This document shows, piece after piece, positions 40,736 to 44,895 of a stretch of 64,000 nucleotides of DNA. Source of the DNA: an uncultured Acidobacteriota bacterium. Lineage in GTDB: Bacteria > Acidobacteriota > Thermoanaerobaculia > UBA5066 > Gp7-AA6. How positions within the stretch are numbered: position 1 is the first letter of the stretch; the number at the start of each line of letters is the position of its first letter. Location of the stretch: positions 84,169 to 148,168 of the forward strand of contig CAVULG010000009.1 in the NCBI GenBank assembly GCA_963742245.1, written 5' to 3'. The notes under the pieces are model-generated. The model searched no databases and had not been told where the DNA came from. It saw only the letters and a list, made by a program, of their open reading frames with translations. The position numbers were made by a program, and so were the translations under genes.

Positions 40736-41635
40736 CTACGGTGCGAGCCCCGGCTCGTAGTACATGAGGAACTCCAGGAACTTGATCGCCTCGATCATGT
40801 CCTTGCCGCGGAACCGGATCGCGTGCGCGTCGGTGCGCTCGACGATCGGGAGATAGGCGAGGACCTCGGACGGCCGGTAGTTCTTGAAGCGCACGTCGAG
40901 GACGACGGGCGGGGCGACCACGTAGGGTTTGAAGCTCGAGAGCCGTCCGAGCGCCGTCTTCGCCGCCTCGCGGATCTTGTCGCAGCTCGCTTCGGGGGTG
41001 AGCGTGCGCGCGGAGTGAAAACCATAGTTCCACTTGACGACGGCGCCCTCGATCGGCCCCAGCAGCGCCTGCGCCTCCTTGACCGCCGCGTCGTCGCCCG
41101 TGATCAGCGCGACGGGCACCTTGAAGTGCCCCGCGACCGCAGCGTCGAGGCCCGCCTCCGGAACGGAGACGCCGTTCAGGCGCACGTCCGCGAGGTTGGC
41201 GGACGACATCGTGTGCGCCCGGACTCCCTCGGTCGCCGTGGTCGAGGAATGGAACCCGACGAAGAGCACGGCGTCGAAGGAGGCGTCGATCCCCTGCATC
41301 ATCGCGAGGGGCCGCGGCCACGAGCGGACGATCTGGACGTCCTTCGGGAAGCGCTCGATCAGGAGGTTCTGTCCGTTCCCGTGCGAGTCCGCGACCAGGA
41401 TCTCGGTCGCGCCGGCGGCCCGCGCGCCTTCGATCGCGGCGAGCACCTCGTTGGTCATGAAGCCGCGGAACCGCTCGTACTCGAAGCCCGGGGGTCCGAG
41501 CTGTTCGCCGCTCACGACGCCGGCGATGCCTTCCATGTCGGCGGCGATGAAAACCTTGAGCTTCCTCGGCTGCGCGAGCGCTGGAAAAGCGAGAAGGAAC
41601 GCGAGCGCGGGAAGGAACCGGGCGCCGCGCCTCAC
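40736..41635 (-). CDS. M55-family D-aminopeptidase (DppA-like), exported
   Basis: GTG 41635 lies inside ORF 40736..42514. Signal peptide, then VFIAADMEGIAGV and ADSHGNG motifs. Confidence 0.8.
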   Translation of the reverse strand: MRRGARFLPALAFLLAFPALAQPRKLKVFIAADMEGIAGVVSGEQLGPPGFEYERFRGFMTNEVLAAIEGARAAGATEILVADSHGNGQNLLIERFPKDVQIVRSWPRPLAMMQGIDASFDAVLFVGFHSSTTATEGVRAHTMSSANLADVRLNGVSVPEAGLDAAVAGHFKVPVALITGDDAAVKEAQALLGPIEGAVVKWNYGFHSARTLTPEASCDKIREAAKTALGRLSSFKPYVVAPPVVLDVRFKNYRPSEVLAYLPIVERTDAHAIRFRGKDMIEAIKFLEFLMYYEPGLAP

Positions 41636-42441
41636 AGCCCGCCGCCCGTCGCCGGGGCTTCCGTCTTCGCCCCCTTCGGCATCGCGAAGCGCGAATCGTC
41701 GATCGTCACGTCGAGCTCGATCTTGTCGAACACGAGCGACTGCGTCTCCTCCACGTCGGGCGTGGACGCCGAGTACGAGTGCGGCAGCATGAGACCGCCG
41801 ACCTTGCGGTAGTCGCCGATCCGGCTCTTGATCTCGATGGGCCGTCCGTCGACGCTCCGGCGCGACACCGTCAGAACCTGGAGGTATGTCTTCGCGTCGA
41901 GGTACAGATCGCGCGACTCGCCGTTCTTGCGCGTGATGCGCAGGCGCCAGGCTTCGATCGCGCGGCCGCCTTCGCCCTCGCCCTCGAGCGTTTCCTTGCC
42001 GACGAGCTCGATCGTGTTGCCCTTGGCCAGGGCGTCGACGAGCGGTCCGTCCATGTCGGCCTGCATCTCGATGTCGCGGGTCTCGGCATCGGTCATGATC
42101 CGCGGCTCGACCTGCCCCGCGAACGGCATCACGGCCCAGGCCGTTTTTCCGTCGAACGCCTGGATGGCCATTTGGCCGTCGAGCGTGAACTCCCAGCGCG
42201 CTTTGGCAGGACGCTTGAGCTCCAGCACGGTCGGCAGCTTGTCCTGCCCCAGCCGCATCGCCCCCGTCATGCGCATCGATTGAACGGCCTGGATCTTCTC
42301 CAGGCCGCCGCGCGCCTCGAGGTTCTTTGCCACGAGCTCCTCGGCGGTGGGGGTCTGTTCGGCCGCGAGGGCCGCGGCAAGTCCGAGGGCCGCAGCGAGT
42401 CCGAGGGCCGGCACGGGCAAACCGCGCATCGTTTTGTTCAT
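41632..42441 (-). CDS. LolA-like outer-membrane lipoprotein-sorting family protein (tentative)
   Basis: Signal peptide, a roughly 240-aa beta-rich sequence, and an N-terminal AEELVAKNLEARGG motif typical of this family. Confidence 0.5.
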   Translation of the reverse strand: MNKTMRGLPVPALGLAAALGLAAALAAEQTPTAEELVAKNLEARGGLEKIQAVQSMRMTGAMRLGQDKLPTVLELKRPAKARWEFTLDGQMAIQAFDGKTAWAVMPFAGQVEPRIMTDAETRDIEMQADMDGPLVDALAKGNTIELVGKETLEGEGEGGRAIEAWRLRITRKNGESRDLYLDAKTYLQVLTVSRRSVDGRPIEIKSRIGDYRKVGGLMLPHSYSASTPDVEETQSLVFDKIELDVTIDDSRFAMPKGAKTEAPATGGGL

Positions 42442-42492
42442 TCCACGCTCCCGTTCGGCGCGACTCTAACCCAGGCCCCCCGGCCGAGGGTG

Positions 42493-42525
42493 TATATAGA
42501 GCCCCACCAAACACTCGGAGGGAGG
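42493..42525 (+). promoter_or_regulatory. putative promoter -10 (TATATA) and Shine-Dalgarno (GGAGGGAGG) of the RyR/4TM/TIR operon
   Basis: An AT-rich hexamer at 42493-42498 stands out in GC-rich DNA. The Shine-Dalgarno at 42517-42525 lies before GTG 42531. Confidence 0.4.
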
Positions 42526-42530
42526 CGCGC

Positions 42531-42818
42531 GTGGTCTACAAGCCCTCGCCCCGCGACACTTCGGGCGTCCGCCTGCCTCGCGAGATCGCCGAGCTGACGG
42601 AGCTGCTCGCGAGGAACACGCACGAGAACTGGGCGCGCCAGCGCATCGCCGAAGGCTGGCGCCACGGCCCGCAGCGCGACGACGCGAAGAAGGAGCACCC
42701 TTCGCTCGTTCCCTACGAAGAGCTGCCCGAGTCCGAGAAGGAATACGACCGCACGACCGCGATGGAATCGATCAAGACGATCCTCGCGCTGGGATACCGG
42801 ATCGAGAAGAAGTCGTGA
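42531..42818 (+). CDS. stand-alone RyR-domain protein
   Basis: GTG 42531 lies 6 nt after GGAGGGAGG. 95 aa. IAELTELLARNTHENWARQRIAEGWRHGPQRDDAKKEHPSLVPYEELPESEKEYDRTTAMESIKTILALGY matches the RyR (PF02026-type) repeat pattern. Confidence 0.85.
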   Translation: MVYKPSPRDTSGVRLPREIAELTELLARNTHENWARQRIAEGWRHGPQRDDAKKEHPSLVPYEELPESEKEYDRTTAMESIKTILALGYRIEKKS

Positions 42819-43933
42819 GCGCCGCCGACGCGCCGCGCAAGCCCGACACGGCCGAGCGCGACGACGACATGCACGACCCGACCGATCGGGGCAAGGCGTT
42901 TCCGCTGGGTCCCTTCCTGCGCCTCTGCGATCCGTACGACGGGAAGAAGGGGCCCGAGCCGTGCCTGCGCACGGACTTCGATGACGCGGACCGGCGCGCG
43001 GCCGGAGGTCAGGGTGCGCACAGTTTTCTCGTGGTCGCATCGGTGCTCTGCGGTCTGACCGCGATTTTCTGGGGACTCGGGTCGCAGCTGCGTCGGCCGT
43101 GGCCTCCCTCCCCCGACGAAGTGCACGGTGGCGCGGGTTGGTGGTTCGAGGCGGGATTGACCGGTCTGGCTTTGATCCTCGTGCTCTGGACCCTGATTCG
43201 CGCGACCCAGAAAACGTGGCTGATCGAGCGATACAAGGCCGAGCACCTGCGCCTCATCAAGTTCCGGCTTCTCATCGAGCCGTCCCTCTGGAACGGCGAC
43301 GTCAAAGACATGCAGGACCTGCAACACGATCTGGAGACGCGGCGCGCGAAAGTCGCCCATGCCCCGCACAAGCTGCTCGAAGCGCTCGCGCACAGCGATG
43401 CCCTTCCCGATCTCCCGTCGACCGAGTCCTGCCGCCGCGTCGATCTCGTACAGCTCCAACGGCTCCTCGATTACTACCGGCGCAAGCGCCTCGACTTTCA
43501 GCTGCGGTATTTCGAACGGAAGATGGGCGAGAAGCTGTCGTGGCTCGACAACAGTCTCTGGCAACCGGTCTTCTTTTTCGTCGCGATCGGACTGAGCGCC
43601 TTCAATCTCATGCTCGAGAGTCCGTGGAGCCAGCCCTCCAACGCAGCGATCGTGCGGGTTCTGGTGTTCGGATCCCTGGCGGTGCCCTTCGGTTGGGCCG
43701 CCATCCGAACGCTTCGGGGCGCACACGAGCGTGTCCGCAACCAGGCGCGCTCCCACGCCCGGTACGACTCGCTCGCGGAGATTCGCCGCAGCCTCGACGC
43801 CGAGGTCGCCCGGGACGCCGAGCATCTCGACCCGACCAAGATCTTCGGCTACCTCTACCTCTGCGAGGGCCTCCTCGCGGCCGACCAGCACGAGTGGCTG
43901 CGGCTGATGACCGAGGCCGAGGCGTATGGCTGA
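42815..43933 (+). CDS. 4-TM protein with two SLATT-like 2TM modules
   Basis: The GTG start overlaps the RyR stop (GTGA). TM pairs lie at about aa 68-129 and 250-299. Each pair is followed by an amphipathic helix. The segment QLRYFERKMGEKLSWLDN precedes the second TM pair, as in SLATT/DUF4231 proteins. Confidence 0.6.
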   Translation: MSAADAPRKPDTAERDDDMHDPTDRGKAFPLGPFLRLCDPYDGKKGPEPCLRTDFDDADRRAAGGQGAHSFLVVASVLCGLTAIFWGLGSQLRRPWPPSPDEVHGGAGWWFEAGLTGLALILVLWTLIRATQKTWLIERYKAEHLRLIKFRLLIEPSLWNGDVKDMQDLQHDLETRRAKVAHAPHKLLEALAHSDALPDLPSTESCRRVDLVQLQRLLDYYRRKRLDFQLRYFERKMGEKLSWLDNSLWQPVFFFVAIGLSAFNLMLESPWSQPSNAAIVRVLVFGSLAVPFGWAAIRTLRGAHERVRNQARSHARYDSLAEIRRSLDAEVARDAEHLDPTKIFGYLYLCEGLLAADQHEWLRLMTEAEAYG

Positions 43934-44870
43934 CGTCTTCATCTCTTACGCGCACCAGGACGGCGAGATCGTCCGGGAGCTCTCGCCCGCGCTCGAGGCC
44001 GCCGGCTACACGACCTGGTACTACGAGGACAAAGGCGCCGTCGGCGCCTCTTATCTCCTGCAGATCGACCAGGAGATCGAGCGCTGCCACGCCGTCGTCG
44101 TCGTCATCTCTCCGGACTCGGTCGGCTCGGACCAGGTTTCCAAGGAAGTCATCCGCGCGCACGAGTCGCGCAAGAAGTTCATCCCCGTCCGCCACGGCCT
44201 CACGCACGACGAGTTCCAGCGGCGGCAGCCCGAGTGGCGGATGGCGTTCGGCGCCGCCGTCTCCGCGGAAGTCCCGCCCGAGGGCGCGCGCGCGATGGCG
44301 GGACGAATCGTCGCCGGGTTGAAGAAGCTCGGCGTGGAGCCGGGCGGCCCGCCCGCCCTGCCGTCCTCGCCGCTGCGGCGGCTCTCGCGCGGCGCGATCA
44401 AAGGCCTGCCGGCGACCGACACGGGTCTCGGAGGCATCGTGGCCGGAATCGTCGGCCTGCTCGGGATTCCGTGGGCGCTCTTCTATCTCCTGAAGGCTCT
44501 GACGCCGCCGGAGGGAACGGCCGGAGGTTTCGTCCTGTCCACGTTTCCGGGTTTTCGGACCGCGACGATCCTGCTGAATCTCGCGGGCCTCGCCCAGAAC
44601 GCGCTCCTGCTCTATGGAGCCTGGCTGCTGCGCCGCAAGGACGCCCGCGGCGCGCCGCTTCTGAAGAAGGTCTCCGTCTCGATGCTCGCGACCGTCGGGC
44701 TCTGGCTGCTGGTGTCGCTCGCGTCCTTCACGGGCGAGAGCGCGCGACGCGCCATTCCAGATGCCAACTCGCGCAGCGGTCTCGTCGTGGCGACGATCGT
44801 GGCCGGAATGATCGCTCTCGTTCCGTCGGGCCTCGTCTTCGGCCTCTTCCGCAACGCCGGCAAGCGCTAA
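43926..44870 (+). CDS. TIR domain protein fused to 4-5 C-terminal TM helices
   Basis: The ATG overlaps the upstream stop by 8 nt. DVFISYAHQD beta-A strand, and VVVISPDSVGSDQVSKEV with the conserved Glu (E74). The region from aa 165-310 is hydrophobic. Confidence 0.85.
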   Translation: MADVFISYAHQDGEIVRELSPALEAAGYTTWYYEDKGAVGASYLLQIDQEIERCHAVVVVISPDSVGSDQVSKEVIRAHESRKKFIPVRHGLTHDEFQRRQPEWRMAFGAAVSAEVPPEGARAMAGRIVAGLKKLGVEPGGPPALPSSPLRRLSRGAIKGLPATDTGLGGIVAGIVGLLGIPWALFYLLKALTPPEGTAGGFVLSTFPGFRTATILLNLAGLAQNALLLYGAWLLRRKDARGAPLLKKVSVSMLATVGLWLLVSLASFTGESARRAIPDANSRSGLVVATIVAGMIALVPSGLVFGLFRNAGKR

Positions 44871-44895
44871 GAGCTAAGGATAGTCTTCCGTCCGC

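What the first reader, a model, noticed from the sequence alone, without database searches (positions are those of the whole stretch)
43926..44870. TIR domain fused directly to a 4-5 helix membrane domain, catalytic Glu retained
Seen: the N-terminal ~125 aa carry TIR hallmarks (DVFISYAHQD; VVVISPDSVGSDQVSKEV with Glu74 at the position of the catalytic Glu). Residues ~165-310 form 4-5 hydrophobic helices. Established: TIR effectors and signal generators in known bacterial systems are usually soluble, or are fused to sensor domains such as STING, SAVED or NLR-like modules. Inference: an integral-membrane TIR would put NAD+ cleavage at the inner membrane, next to the co-encoded 4TM protein. The TM domain may gate TIR oligomerisation.
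Basis: partly seen in the sequence, partly recalled or inferred. Interest (0 to 1): 0.7.

Follow-up and report, generated by a model that had tools for sequence, protein, structure and literature searches.

The report
Membrane TIR in RyR–SLATT–TIR cassette
The gene does encode a TIR enzyme domain fused to a four-helix membrane domain, and it is the last gene of a three-gene, probably anti-phage, cassette whose first gene is a small ryanodine-receptor-type domain of the kind recently shown in phages to bind or cut cyclic ADP-ribose signals.

Summary
ORF 43926-44870 encodes a 314-aa protein with a real TIR domain (Pfam TIR_2, E=6e-20; fold closest to AbTir, SPARTA and SARM1). Glu74 is invariant and sits at the catalytic-Glu position. 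A disordered linker and four (not five) transmembrane helices follow.

The gene is translationally coupled to two upstream genes: a 95-aa RyR (R12) domain protein and a 372-aa four-TM protein that is a divergent tandem SLATT protein.

TIR+SLATT is the gene content of type VII Thoeris. Two features were not found described in the literature searched:
- a 4TM module without a Pfam family on the TIR;
- a host-encoded RyR protein that keeps all four ligand/catalytic residues of the phage cADPR glycosidase RyDEP.

RyR lies directly upstream of 45 of 65 metagenomic relatives of the SLATT gene. TIR partners there carry alternative C-terminal modules (4TM, TPR, WD40, PsbP, CD225).

In Thermoanaerobaculia the cassette occupies one fixed intergenic site. 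It is absent from three related genomes, and its modules are shuffled and fast-evolving. These are conflict-system hallmarks.

Best reading: a Thoeris-like NAD+-derived signalling system with a membrane-embedded TIR sensor/synthase, a SLATT pore effector and a RyR signal binder or degrader. All biochemistry is inferred.

The parts
42442..42530 (+). Left junction and leader. This is the intergenic region between the divergent LolA-like gene and the RyR gene. It contains a Shine-Dalgarno-like GGAGGGAGG at 42517-42525.
   Evidence: Sequence read. The left ~55 nt align with the intergenic region of cassette-free related genomes. No sigma-70 consensus promoter was found.
42531..42818 (+). RyR (R12) domain protein, 95 aa, soluble. 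The start is GTG 42531. The longer mechanical ORF from 42327 overlaps the LolA-like gene and is not supported by the 93-108 aa homologues.
   Evidence: Pfam RyR E=1e-35, 122 bits against a cutoff of 27.4. phmmer matches animal RyR2 repeat 1 at E=4e-20 and the B. thetaiotaomicron 3NRT protein at 4e-32. BLASTP to phage RyDEP gives E=8e-11, with RyDEP H75/W78/H100/D117 aligned to H31/W34/H56/D73. These residues are 100/100/91/100% conserved in 45 orthologues.
42815..43933 (+). Tandem SLATT-like 4TM protein, 372 aa. TM helices lie at about 66-92, 108-130, 247-268 and 277-300, with large cytosolic parts. The start GTG overlaps the RyR stop (GTGA).
   Evidence: NCBIfam SLATT_1 E=2e-3 and SLATT_3 E=0.04 for this protein. 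Family level: 31/41 members hit SLATT_3 (best 7e-8) and 23/41 SLATT_1 (best 6e-10); Pfam SLATT_3 26/41 and DUF4231 10/41. The N-half hits SLATT_3/DUF4231 and the C-half hits SLATT_1, above Pfam cutoffs in some members. AF2 pLDDT 89.8, pTM 0.86. No PDB fold match.
43926..44330 (+). TIR domain of the TIR-4TM protein (aa 1-135). The start ATG overlaps the SLATT gene stop by 8 nt (ATGGCTGA). The Glu74 codon is at 44145-44147.
44331..44420 (+). Low-confidence, Pro/Arg-rich linker (aa 136-165).
   Evidence: pLDDT <50 for aa 145-165. Variable length and sequence in the family.
44421..44870 (+). C-terminal 4TM module (aa 166-308) plus a basic tail and the stop codon. Conserved small-residue motif in TM1 (A173, G177, G180), and F207, F210-R211, N218, W260, P300, F308-R309.
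   Evidence: The profile search found the module in 85 representative clusters, fused to TIR_2, Zn-ribbon, GYF_2 or Sel1, or standing alone. No Pfam model covers it. It is not related to the SLATT protein by hhalign.
44871..44895 (+). Right junction: 25 nt before the D-serine-dehydratase-like gene (starts 44896), which is a flanking gene and not part of the cassette.
   Evidence: Junction alignment with empty sites. The DSD gene is absent next to the cassette in other lineages.

Best explanation
The TIR-4TM protein is the sensor and signal-synthase of a three-gene, Thoeris-like conflict (most likely anti-phage, abortive-infection) cassette: RyR-domain protein, tandem-SLATT membrane protein, TIR-4TM.

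Proposed mechanism:
- The C-terminal 4TM module holds the cytoplasmic TIR at the inner membrane in an inactive state.
- It responds to a membrane-associated cue of infection by letting TIR domains self-associate.
- The assembled TIR (Glu74) converts NAD+ into an ADP-ribose-derived second messenger, a cADPR isomer.
- The messenger activates the tandem-SLATT protein to permeabilise or depolarise the membrane.
- The small, highly conserved RyR/R12 protein binds the same messenger in the cytosol. I favour a role as buffer or off-switch (sponge or glycosidase that sets the activation threshold and prevents self-killing). The alternative is that it is the ligand-binding subunit that relays the signal to SLATT.

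Shown:
- domain identities;
- operon coupling;
- conservation of the catalytic and ligand residues;
- recurrent RyR-SLATT-TIR linkage;
- presence/absence polymorphism;
- modular shuffling.

Inferred:
- NADase/cyclase activity;
- nature of the signal;
- the trigger;
- the pore function;
- the role of RyR;
- the defence phenotype.
For: 1. Operon. The three genes overlap (GTGA; ATGGCTGA) on one strand.

2. TIR is catalytic-type. E74 is invariant and aligned to the AbTir catalytic-motif Glu. The closest solved relatives are the NAD+-cleaving TIRs BtTir (E=3e-13), AbTir, SPARTA and SARM1.

3. The middle gene is SLATT-superfamily. TIR+SLATT is type VII Thoeris, shown to defend through cADPR (bioRxiv 10.64898/2025.12.03.692087). 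TIR-SLATT neighbourhoods were predicted earlier to be ADPr-signal plus pore (PMC9503650).

4. RyR keeps all four RyDEP ligand/catalytic residues. Phage RyR-domain proteins bind 2'/3'cADPR at nM affinity or hydrolyse it (PMC13232231).

5. Linkage is recurrent.
- Identical trios occur in other genomic contexts.
- In 80 metagenomic loci of the SLATT family, RyR is directly upstream in 45/65 assessable loci and downstream in 5.
- A TIR gene is directly downstream in at least 28/54.
- None of 70 other TIR loci has RyR or this SLATT.

6. The C-terminus of the TIR partner is interchangeable: 4TM, TPR, WD40, PsbP-like, CD225, DUF4062. This resembles the variable sensor regions of ThsB proteins.

7. 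Conflict-system signatures.
- The cassette sits in one intergenic site and is absent from three related genomes with about 92-nt empty sites.
- Cassette-free genomes nest among cassette-bearing ones.
- SLATT median identity is 30% and 4TM 47%, against RyR 80% and flanks 66-88%.
- Outward-facing loops are the most variable parts.
- Module divergences are uncorrelated.

8. RyR acts on a conserved small ligand rather than docking on SLATT. RyR stays about 80% identical while SLATT drops to about 30%, with no co-variation (rho 0.07-0.27). Sixteen of 65 SLATT loci lack a strong RyR hit, so SLATT can apparently work without it.
Against: - No biochemical or phenotypic data exist for any member.
- The flanking genes are housekeeping, not a defence island.
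- The cassette was not found on phages, plasmids or viral contigs. PADLOC recognises only the TIR domain.
- The TIR has no detectable sequence similarity to the two validated type VII ThsB TIR domains whose sequences the supplement text showed (E=0.56 and 26).
- The canonical Trp of the WxxxE motif is Gln70, which could alter or abolish catalysis.
- The window's own SLATT protein scores below the curated SLATT cutoffs.
- RyR is tied to this SLATT family and not to TIR genes in general. That fits a SLATT-specific subunit at least as well as a generic signal buffer.
- Sequence cannot tell a hydrolase from a sponge from a sensor. RyDEP homologues with the same residues differ in activity.
Confidence: 0.55

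Rival explanations
1. Same cassette and same signal logic, but the RyR/R12 protein is the obligate ligand sensor. It binds the TIR product and docks on the tandem-SLATT protein to open it. That would be a split, bacterial version of an R12 domain sitting on a channel, as in animal ryanodine receptors.
For: - RyR is linked to this SLATT family (45/65 upstream plus 5 downstream) and to no other TIR locus examined (0/70).
- The stop/start overlap with the SLATT gene suggests stoichiometric co-production.
- Ligand-binding residues are invariant.
- The domain is about 50% identical to RyR2 repeat 1.
Against: - There is no co-variation between the highly conserved RyR and the hypervariable SLATT (rho 0.07-0.27).
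- About a quarter of SLATT-family loci lack a clear RyR gene.
- Type VII ThsH SLATT effectors are proposed to bind cADPR themselves.
- The catalytic dyad His/Asp is 100% conserved, though it also contacts the ligand.
Confidence: 0.22
2. This is not immunity but a lineage-specific physiological signalling device. Membrane or envelope stress is sensed by the 4TM module, converted to an ADPR-type messenger and translated into ion flux through the SLATT protein, with RyR tuning the response.
For: - The chromosomal site is fixed between housekeeping genes across deeply diverged Thermoanaerobaculia.
- There is no mobile-element or defence-island context, and the cassette is absent from phage, plasmid and viral collections.
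- The 4TM module also occurs with Zn-ribbon, GYF_2 and Sel1 partners that are not defence-specific.
Against: - The cassette is absent from three related genomes at the same site.
- The membrane parts diverge extremely fast while the flanks stay conserved, and modules are shuffled.
- Partners in sister loci are typical conflict-system parts: STAND-TPR, patatin, TIR-WD40.
- The closest characterised system is anti-phage.
Confidence: 0.12
3. The TIR-4TM protein is itself the killing effector, through NAD+ depletion at the membrane and/or pore formation by its Gly-rich 4TM bundle, rather than a signal generator. SLATT and RyR act upstream or in parallel.
For: - Many bacterial TIRs (AbTir-like, SPARTA, TIR-SAVED) act as NAD+-depleting effectors (own knowledge), and these are its closest solved relatives.
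- TM1 carries a conserved small-residue motif and TM4 of relatives gives weak glycine-zipper hits.
Against: - No other signal-generating enzyme (CD-NTase, cyclase, SMODS) is encoded in the cassette, so nothing would activate it.
- SLATT is the recognised effector module in TIR-SLATT systems.
- RyR proteins act on TIR-made signals.
Confidence: 0.08
4. The TIR is a non-catalytic scaffold, acting by protein-protein assembly as in TLR/MyD88, and the membrane domain simply anchors it.
For: The Trp of the WxxxE motif is replaced by Gln or His. The profile also matches non-enzymatic TLR and MyD88 TIRs.
Against: E74 is invariant over 38-100% identity. The best sequence and fold matches are enzymatic TIRs. 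The co-encoded RyR domain is a nucleotide-signal binder.
Confidence: 0.03

Closest known systems
Type VII Thoeris (ThsB TIR + ThsH SLATT effector; canonical cADPR signal), Yirmiya et al., bioRxiv 10.64898/2025.12.03.692087
   Same: A TIR gene sits next to a SLATT-superfamily membrane protein. The logic is presumably the same: an NAD+-derived signal activates a membrane effector.
   Different: - This is a three-gene cassette with a RyR/R12 protein, which that paper and its held supplements do not mention.
- The TIR carries a C-terminal 4TM module.
- The TIR is of the TIR_2/AbTir-like type, with no BLASTP similarity to the two validated type VII TIR domains tested.
- The SLATT protein is a 372-aa tandem form with 4 TM.
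- It is not in a defence island.
Phage RyDEP (mycobacteriophage DyoEdafos gp78) and phage RyR-domain sponges, PMC13232231
   Same: Same Pfam domain (PF02026). All four ligand/catalytic residues are conserved with identical spacing.
   Different: - RyDEP is a viral anti-defence protein. Here the RyR protein is host-encoded inside the TIR operon, so it would be a component or regulator of the system rather than an inhibitor from outside.
- It has 95 aa and lacks RyDEP's about 40-aa N-terminal extension.
- Hydrolase versus binder is unknown.
AbTir / BtTir bacterial TIR NADases (PDB 7uxu, 7uxr)
   Same: These are the best sequence (E=3e-13, 2.5e-11) and fold (TM-score 0.79) matches. The Glu is aligned.
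   Different: Those proteins are soluble, with coiled-coil N-termini. The Trp of their WxxxE motif is Gln70 here. The product is unknown.
TIR-SLATT gene neighbourhoods predicted by Burroughs/Aravind (cited in PMC9503650 and PMC7159879)
   Same: TIR is paired with a 2TM SLATT module predicted to be an ADPr-derivative-regulated pore.
   Different: The two papers that could be searched do not mention RyR. The original 2015 paper was not in the searchable library.
Animal cADPR - ryanodine receptor axis (SARM1/CD38 make cADPR; RyR channels carry R12 repeats)
   Same: The three ingredients co-occur: a TIR enzyme, an R12 domain about 50% identical to RyR2 repeat 1, and a membrane channel-like protein.
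   Different: The R12 domain is a separate 95-aa protein, not part of the channel. The membrane protein is SLATT and is unrelated to RyR pores. The analogy is functional and not shown.
Toll-like receptors (membrane-tethered TIR)
   Same: A cytoplasmic TIR is attached to a membrane-spanning part.
   Different: TLRs have a single pass, an extracellular LRR sensor, the TIR C-terminal to the TM, and a scaffold function. Here the TIR is N-terminal to four TM helices with only short outside loops.

Membership tests
TIR domain (Pfam TIR_2, PF13676) | Profile match above the curated cutoff | tested here: met
   72.5 bits against a cutoff of 28, E=5.7e-20
TIR domain (Pfam TIR_2, PF13676) | Flavodoxin-like TIR fold superposable on solved TIR domains | tested here: met
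   AF2 pLDDT about 90 over aa 1-135. Foldseek gives AbTir E=8e-6 with TM-score 0.79, plus SARM1, SPARTA and MyD88.
Catalytic (NAD+-cleaving) TIRs | Conserved catalytic Glu on helix alpha-C | tested here: met
   E74 is invariant in 37 sequences and aligned to the AbTir WTNYE Glu.
Catalytic (NAD+-cleaving) TIRs | Trp four residues before the Glu (WxxxE) | tested here: not met
   Invariant Gln70; His in the L083/L085 clade. The significance is unknown.
Catalytic (NAD+-cleaving) TIRs | NAD+ turnover and identity of the product | not testable with these tools
   Needs an enzyme assay and LC-MS.
Thoeris (general) | A TIR gene in an operon with an effector gene that can receive a TIR-made signal | tested here: met
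   Overlapping genes. The SLATT-superfamily neighbour is the effector type of type VII.
Thoeris (general) | Enrichment in defence islands or mobile contexts | tested here: not met
   The flanks are MsrA/B, peptidase M55, D-Ser dehydratase-like, YceI and desaturase. No hits in phage, plasmid or viral collections. The cassette is nevertheless an indel polymorphism.
Thoeris (general) | Protection against phage | not testable with these tools
   Needs phage challenge.
Type VII Thoeris | Effector carries a SLATT domain | tested here: inconclusive
   The window protein scores below the cutoffs (18 bits against 41). At family level 31/41 members hit SLATT_3 and 23/41 SLATT_1, and some members exceed Pfam cutoffs.
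Type VII Thoeris | TIR belongs to the ThsB clusters of validated type VII systems | tested here: not met
   BLASTP to the two validated TIR sequences shown in the supplement passages gives E=0.56 and 26.
Type VII Thoeris | Two-gene architecture | tested here: not met
   Three coupled genes including RyR.
RyR / R12 domain (PF02026) | Profile match above the cutoff, with similarity to solved R12 repeats | tested here: met
   122 bits against 27.4. RyR2 repeat 1 E=4e-20; 3NRT E=4e-32.
RyDEP-type cADPR glycosidase/sponge | H75, W78, H100 and D117 equivalents present | tested here: met
   H31, W34, H56 and D73 in an ungapped alignment. They are conserved in 45 orthologues.
RyDEP-type cADPR glycosidase/sponge | Virus-encoded anti-defence protein | tested here: not met
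   It is encoded in a chromosomal operon with TIR and SLATT. The SLATT gene is absent from viral collections.
RyDEP-type cADPR glycosidase/sponge | Binding or cleavage of 2'/3'cADPR | not testable with these tools
   Needs EMSA or TLC as in PMC13232231.

The most novel reading that the evidence does not exclude
A cellular RyR/R12-domain protein is an integral third component of a widespread bacterial TIR-SLATT signalling system. It is the receptor for the TIR-made ADP-ribose messenger and controls a membrane channel-like effector. On this reading, a prokaryotic 'TIR, then cADPR-type signal, then R12 domain, then membrane permeability' pathway prefigures the animal cADPR-ryanodine-receptor axis. 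It would also offer a minimal system to test whether R12 domains are the long-sought cADPR-binding sites.
Probability: 0.22. Interest if true: 0.9.

Novelty: new variant of a known kind. Interest (0 to 1): 0.68.

Why it matters
Four reasons it would matter if the model holds.

1. It would be the first TIR signalling system in which the TIR enzyme is itself an integral membrane protein. That points to sensing of infection at the membrane rather than in the cytosol.

2. It would show that RyR/R12 domains, just identified in phages as destroyers or sponges of cADPR signals, are also used by the host inside the signalling operon. They could act as a built-in off-switch, comparable in logic to ring nucleases of type III CRISPR (own knowledge), or as the signal receptor. 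I know of no host-encoded regulator of this kind described for Thoeris.

3. The co-occurrence of a TIR, an R12 domain about 50% identical to RyR2 repeat 1 and a membrane permeability protein gives a simple bacterial model. It bears on the old, unresolved question of how cADPR acts on ryanodine receptors.

4. The modular family (RyR + tandem SLATT + TIR-X, where X is 4TM, TPR, WD40, PsbP or CD225) is a ready-made set of natural sensor swaps for studying how TIRs are triggered.

Tried and rejected
- First working idea, rejected: a vertically inherited housekeeping locus, because 11 loci were perfectly syntenic. Three related genomes then showed the same flanks with about 92-nt empty sites, and the flank tree nests them among carriers.
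- hhalign of the TIR's 4TM module against the SLATT protein found no relationship (probability <5%).
- hhalign of the N-half against the C-half of the SLATT protein found no internal repeat. Pfam nevertheless hits SLATT models in both halves of some members, so 'tandem SLATT' rests on those hits only.
- Foldseek of the confident SLATT model against PDB gave nothing below E=0.1.
- I tested whether the acidic N-terminal DDMxD motif of the SLATT protein occurs only when RyR is present. It is near-universal, so the test was uninformative.
- PADLOC gave only TIR-level hits (PDC-S66, ThsB, SAVED-TIR, Aga-TIR) and nothing for RyR or SLATT.
- The SLATT protein has no match in viral contigs, phage genomes or plasmids.
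- There are no tRNA or Rfam features in the window, no sigma-70 consensus promoter, and no credible terminator between the genes.
- Literature searches for RyR together with SLATT or TIR operons in bacteria found only the two 2025-26 preprints. Neither describes this trio.
- The D-Ser-dehydratase-like gene 25 nt downstream was considered as a fourth member. It was rejected because it is present at empty sites and absent from trios elsewhere.
Full report
**1. Observation**

The ORF at 43926-44870 (+) encodes 314 aa in a 65-72% GC window.

TIR domain:
- Its N-terminus matches Pfam TIR_2 (E=5.7e-20, 72.5 bits against a cutoff of 28) and TIR (E=2.4e-6).
- An AlphaFold2 model built on 37 homologues has mean pLDDT 86.7. 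It shows a complete TIR fold (aa 1-135), a disordered linker (145-165) and four long helices at 163-192, 199/208-236, 242-269 and 280-308.
- Foldseek against the PDB returns only TIR domains: AbTir 7uxu (E=8e-6, TM-score 0.79 on the target), SPARTA TIR-APAZ, SARM1, BtpA and PdTIR.
- Glu74 (GAA, 44145-44147) is invariant in the family.
- In a profile-to-PDB alignment Glu74 pairs with the Glu of the AbTir/BtTir 'W-T-N/E-Y-E' motif. By my own knowledge that is the catalytic E208 of AbTir.
- One departure: the Trp four residues upstream is an invariant Gln70, and His in a distant clade.

Membrane part:
- Hydropathy and the K+R distribution fit an N-in/C-in four-TM topology with a cytoplasmic TIR.

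**2. The gene is the last of three coupled genes**

*Middle gene.* The upstream ORF 42815-43933 (372 aa, 4 TM) ends 8 nt inside the TIR gene (ATGGCTGA). It starts on the stop codon of a still earlier gene (GTGA).

*First gene.* That gene runs from 42531 to 42818 after correcting the start to the GTG behind a GGAGGGAGG Shine-Dalgarno sequence. It encodes a 95-aa RyR domain protein:
- Pfam PF02026, E=1e-35.
- About 50% identical to repeat 1 of the R12 domain of animal RyR2, E=4e-20 for the 90-aa repeat.

*What the middle protein is.* The window's copy has no Pfam hit and only sub-threshold NCBIfam SLATT hits. Its family is clearer:
- Of 41 homologues, 31 hit NCBIfam SLATT_3 (best 7e-8) and 23 hit SLATT_1 (best 6e-10).
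- 26 hit Pfam SLATT_3 and 10 hit DUF4231.
- The N-terminal TM pair matches SLATT_3/DUF4231 and the C-terminal TM pair plus tail matches SLATT_1, above Pfam cutoffs in some members.

I therefore call it a divergent tandem SLATT protein. Its AF2 model is confident (pLDDT 89.8, pTM 0.86) but has no solved structural relative.

**3. What the literature says about the parts**

- TIR next to SLATT is the architecture of type VII Thoeris. In that system the TIR makes canonical cADPR on infection and the SLATT protein ThsH is the presumed membrane-breaching effector (bioRxiv 10.64898/2025.12.03.692087).
- TIR-SLATT neighbourhoods had been predicted to be an ADPr-signal plus pore (PMC9503650, PMC7159879).
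- RyR-domain proteins were shown in 2026 to be phage anti-Thoeris factors (PMC13232231):
  - RyDEP of mycobacteriophage DyoEdafos is a glycosidase that cleaves 2'/3'cADPR.
  - Other phage homologues sequester these signals at nanomolar affinity.
  - The key residues are H75, W78, H100 and D117.
- I fetched RyDEP (MN234187 gene 78) and aligned it. The window protein matches it ungapped over 44 aa (41% identity, E=8e-11), with H31, W34, H56 and D73 at those four positions.
- In 45 distinct RyR proteins encoded next to SLATT-family genes these residues are 100, 100, 91 and 100% conserved.
- No paper in the searchable library links RyR domains to TIR or SLATT operons of bacteria. The Thoeris survey and its held supplements do not mention RyR. 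The original 2015 SLATT paper was not searchable.

**4. How general the trio is**

*Full-length TIR-4TM relatives.* About 39 clusters at 38-77% identity exist. In a scan of one genome per species the family appears in only eight representatives, all Acidobacteriota/Thermoanaerobaculia MAGs.

*The trio is wider than that lineage.*
- Two MAGs have RyR, tandem SLATT and TIR-4TM (TIR proteins of 350-362 aa with a homologous 4TM) in entirely different flanks.
- Another locus couples the SLATT and RyR genes with a 963-aa TIR-WD40 protein.

*Survey of 80 metagenomic loci encoding relatives of the SLATT protein*:

| Feature | Count |
|---|---|
| RyR gene directly upstream | 45 of 65 loci with enough upstream sequence |
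| RyR gene downstream | 5 more loci |
| TIR gene directly downstream | at least 28 of 54 (family-specific HMM, so a lower bound) |
| 4TM module on the TIR | 7 of 23 assessable |

*Partners in the remaining loci*:
- TIR_2-TPR, TIR_2-PsbP-like, TIR_2-CD225 and TIR_2-DUF4062;
- DUF4062-STAND-TPR;
- patatin genes.

*Control.* None of 70 loci around other close TIR relatives contains RyR or this SLATT.

The conserved core is thus RyR plus tandem SLATT, usually with a TIR whose C-terminal module is interchangeable. The 4TM is one such module.

**5. The 4TM module itself**

- A profile of the module, searched against 1.84 billion representative proteins, finds 85 clusters.
- They include TIR-4TM proteins of at least two TIR subtypes. 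They also include Zn-ribbon-4TM, GYF_2-4TM and 4TM-Sel1 proteins and stand-alone forms.
- No Pfam model covers the module, and it is unrelated to the SLATT protein by hhalign.
- Conserved positions include a small-residue motif in TM1 (A173, G177, G180) and F210-R211, N218, W260 and P300.
- I read it as a generic membrane-embedded tether or oligomerisation module. This is an inference.

**6. Population behaviour**

*Fixed site.* In eleven Thermoanaerobaculia-type loci the cassette lies at exactly the same place. On one side are peptidase M55 and a LolA-like gene. On the other are a D-Ser-dehydratase-like gene, YceI, a fatty-acid desaturase, DUF2062 and a PALP enzyme.

*Empty sites.* I first took this for a core locus. 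Three related genomes then proved otherwise:
- Their flanking D-Ser-dehydratase is 82, 82 and 73% identical to the window's.
- They have the same flanks with only about 92 nt between them and no cassette.
- The junctions align within the intergenic region.
- A neighbour-joining tree of the flanking proteins nests the cassette-free genomes among carriers.

This implies at least two losses, or gains.

*Module divergence within carriers*:

| Module | Median identity |
|---|---|
| RyR | 80% (range 72-93%) |
| Flanking genes | 66-88% (range) |
| TIR domain | 45%, in three types |
| 4TM module | 47% |
| SLATT protein | 30% |

- For example, window against L004 gives RyR 86%, TIR 82%, 4TM 37% and SLATT 33%.
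- Pairwise divergences of the modules are nearly uncorrelated. Spearman rho is 0.08-0.40 within the lineage, and SLATT against 4TM gives 0.11. The pairs are not independent, so this is descriptive only.
- The outward-facing loops are the most variable parts: mean pairwise identity 0.13-0.19 in SLATT and 0.36-0.44 in the 4TM.

Presence/absence polymorphism, shuffling and fast evolution of exposed parts are typical of conflict systems. This holds even though the site is not a defence island and the cassette is absent from phage, plasmid and viral collections.

**7. Mechanism**

Shown:
- domain identities;
- translational coupling;
- conserved catalytic and ligand residues;
- recurrent linkage;
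- modularity;
- polymorphism.

Inferred, following type VII Thoeris and RyDEP:
- The 4TM module keeps the cytoplasmic TIR at the membrane.
- It controls TIR self-association in response to a membrane-proximal cue.
- The TIR converts NAD+ to a cADPR-type messenger.
- The tandem SLATT protein responds by breaching the membrane.
- The RyR protein binds or hydrolyses the messenger.

The independent divergence of the 4TM and SLATT modules argues that they communicate through a diffusible ligand rather than by specific contact.

*The role of RyR.* I favour a buffer or off-switch for two reasons:
- RyR is strongly conserved and does not co-vary with the hypervariable SLATT.
- About a quarter of SLATT loci lack it.

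The alternative, that RyR is the ligand-sensing subunit of the SLATT effector, remains serious. RyR is tied to this SLATT family and to no other TIR locus.

*Which messenger.* This is open. The nearest solved TIRs, AbTir and BtTir, make 2'cADPR (own knowledge). Type VII systems use canonical cADPR.

**8. Comparison and novelty**

The system works like Thoeris, and its gene content overlaps type VII. It fails several membership criteria:
- no similarity to the validated type VII TIR sequences that could be tested;
- three genes rather than two;
- no defence-island context.

The window's SLATT protein is also below curated thresholds.

I classify it as a new variant of a known kind. Two elements were not found described in the literature searched:
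- the integral-membrane TIR;
- above all, the host-encoded RyR/R12 component.

**9. Limits**

- Nothing here is experimental.
- The survey used my own HMMs on short metagenomic contigs and only the best 80 of 149 loci.
- The SLATT assignment is by sub-threshold or family-level profile hits.
- The tree and correlations are simple.
- Residue roles are transferred from one preprint.

Noticed in passing
P0152, P0155, P0165, P0173, P0182, P0201, P0139: The 4TM module of the TIR protein is an uncharacterised domain without a Pfam family. It also occurs fused to Zn-ribbons, GYF_2 domains, Sel1 or TPR repeats, or alone, in about 85 representative clusters.
   Followed up: partly
L119:1880-3103 and L125:5249-6307: In sister cassettes the TIR partner carries a CD225/IFITM-like membrane domain (E=6e-18) or a PsbP-like domain (E=1e-10). 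These are two further unusual TIR fusions next to RyR-SLATT pairs.
   Followed up: partly
L143:4881-6565, L153, L157, L129:4923-6083: Some SLATT-family loci lack RyR and TIR. They are followed instead by a small 'GFTGHR' protein (no Pfam hit; possibly SLOG-like, by eye only) and/or a patatin-like phospholipase.
   Followed up: partly
L086:900-13006: A locus with the tandem SLATT gene, a complete and a fragmentary RyR gene and a 963-aa TIR-WD40 protein. A separate DUF4231 (SLATT-clan) gene and an Nmad2-domain gene lie nearby.
   Followed up: no
L084:2305-3426 versus L083:7058-8110: The same TIR-4TM gene from two assemblies is identical up to 'DWTDEG' and then diverges into a Gly/Arg-rich tail without TM helices in L084. 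This is a frameshift: either an assembly error or a pseudogene.
   Followed up: no
phage collection: RyR-domain ORFs related to the window protein occur in 261 phage records (Salmonella, Pseudomonas, Arthrobacter, Stenotrophomonas, Erwinia, Pectobacterium and others). Two unannotated human-gut 'Bacteriophage sp.' contigs encode copies 52-57% identical over the full length.
   Followed up: no
window 42327-42530: The mechanical ORF for the RyR gene (163 aa from TTG 42327) overlaps the divergent LolA-like gene (41632-42441, minus strand). The supported start is GTG 42531.
   Followed up: yes
window 1-64000: No tRNA genes and no Rfam family reach threshold anywhere in the 64-kb window.
   Followed up: yes
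window 42815-42900 (SLATT protein aa 13-30) and homologues: A near-universal acidic N-terminal motif (DDDMHDP.DR / DDMxD) and an invariant C-terminal 'EW.RLM.EAEWYG' occur in the tandem SLATT family. Their function is unknown, and the acidic motif does not depend on the presence of RyR.
   Followed up: partly
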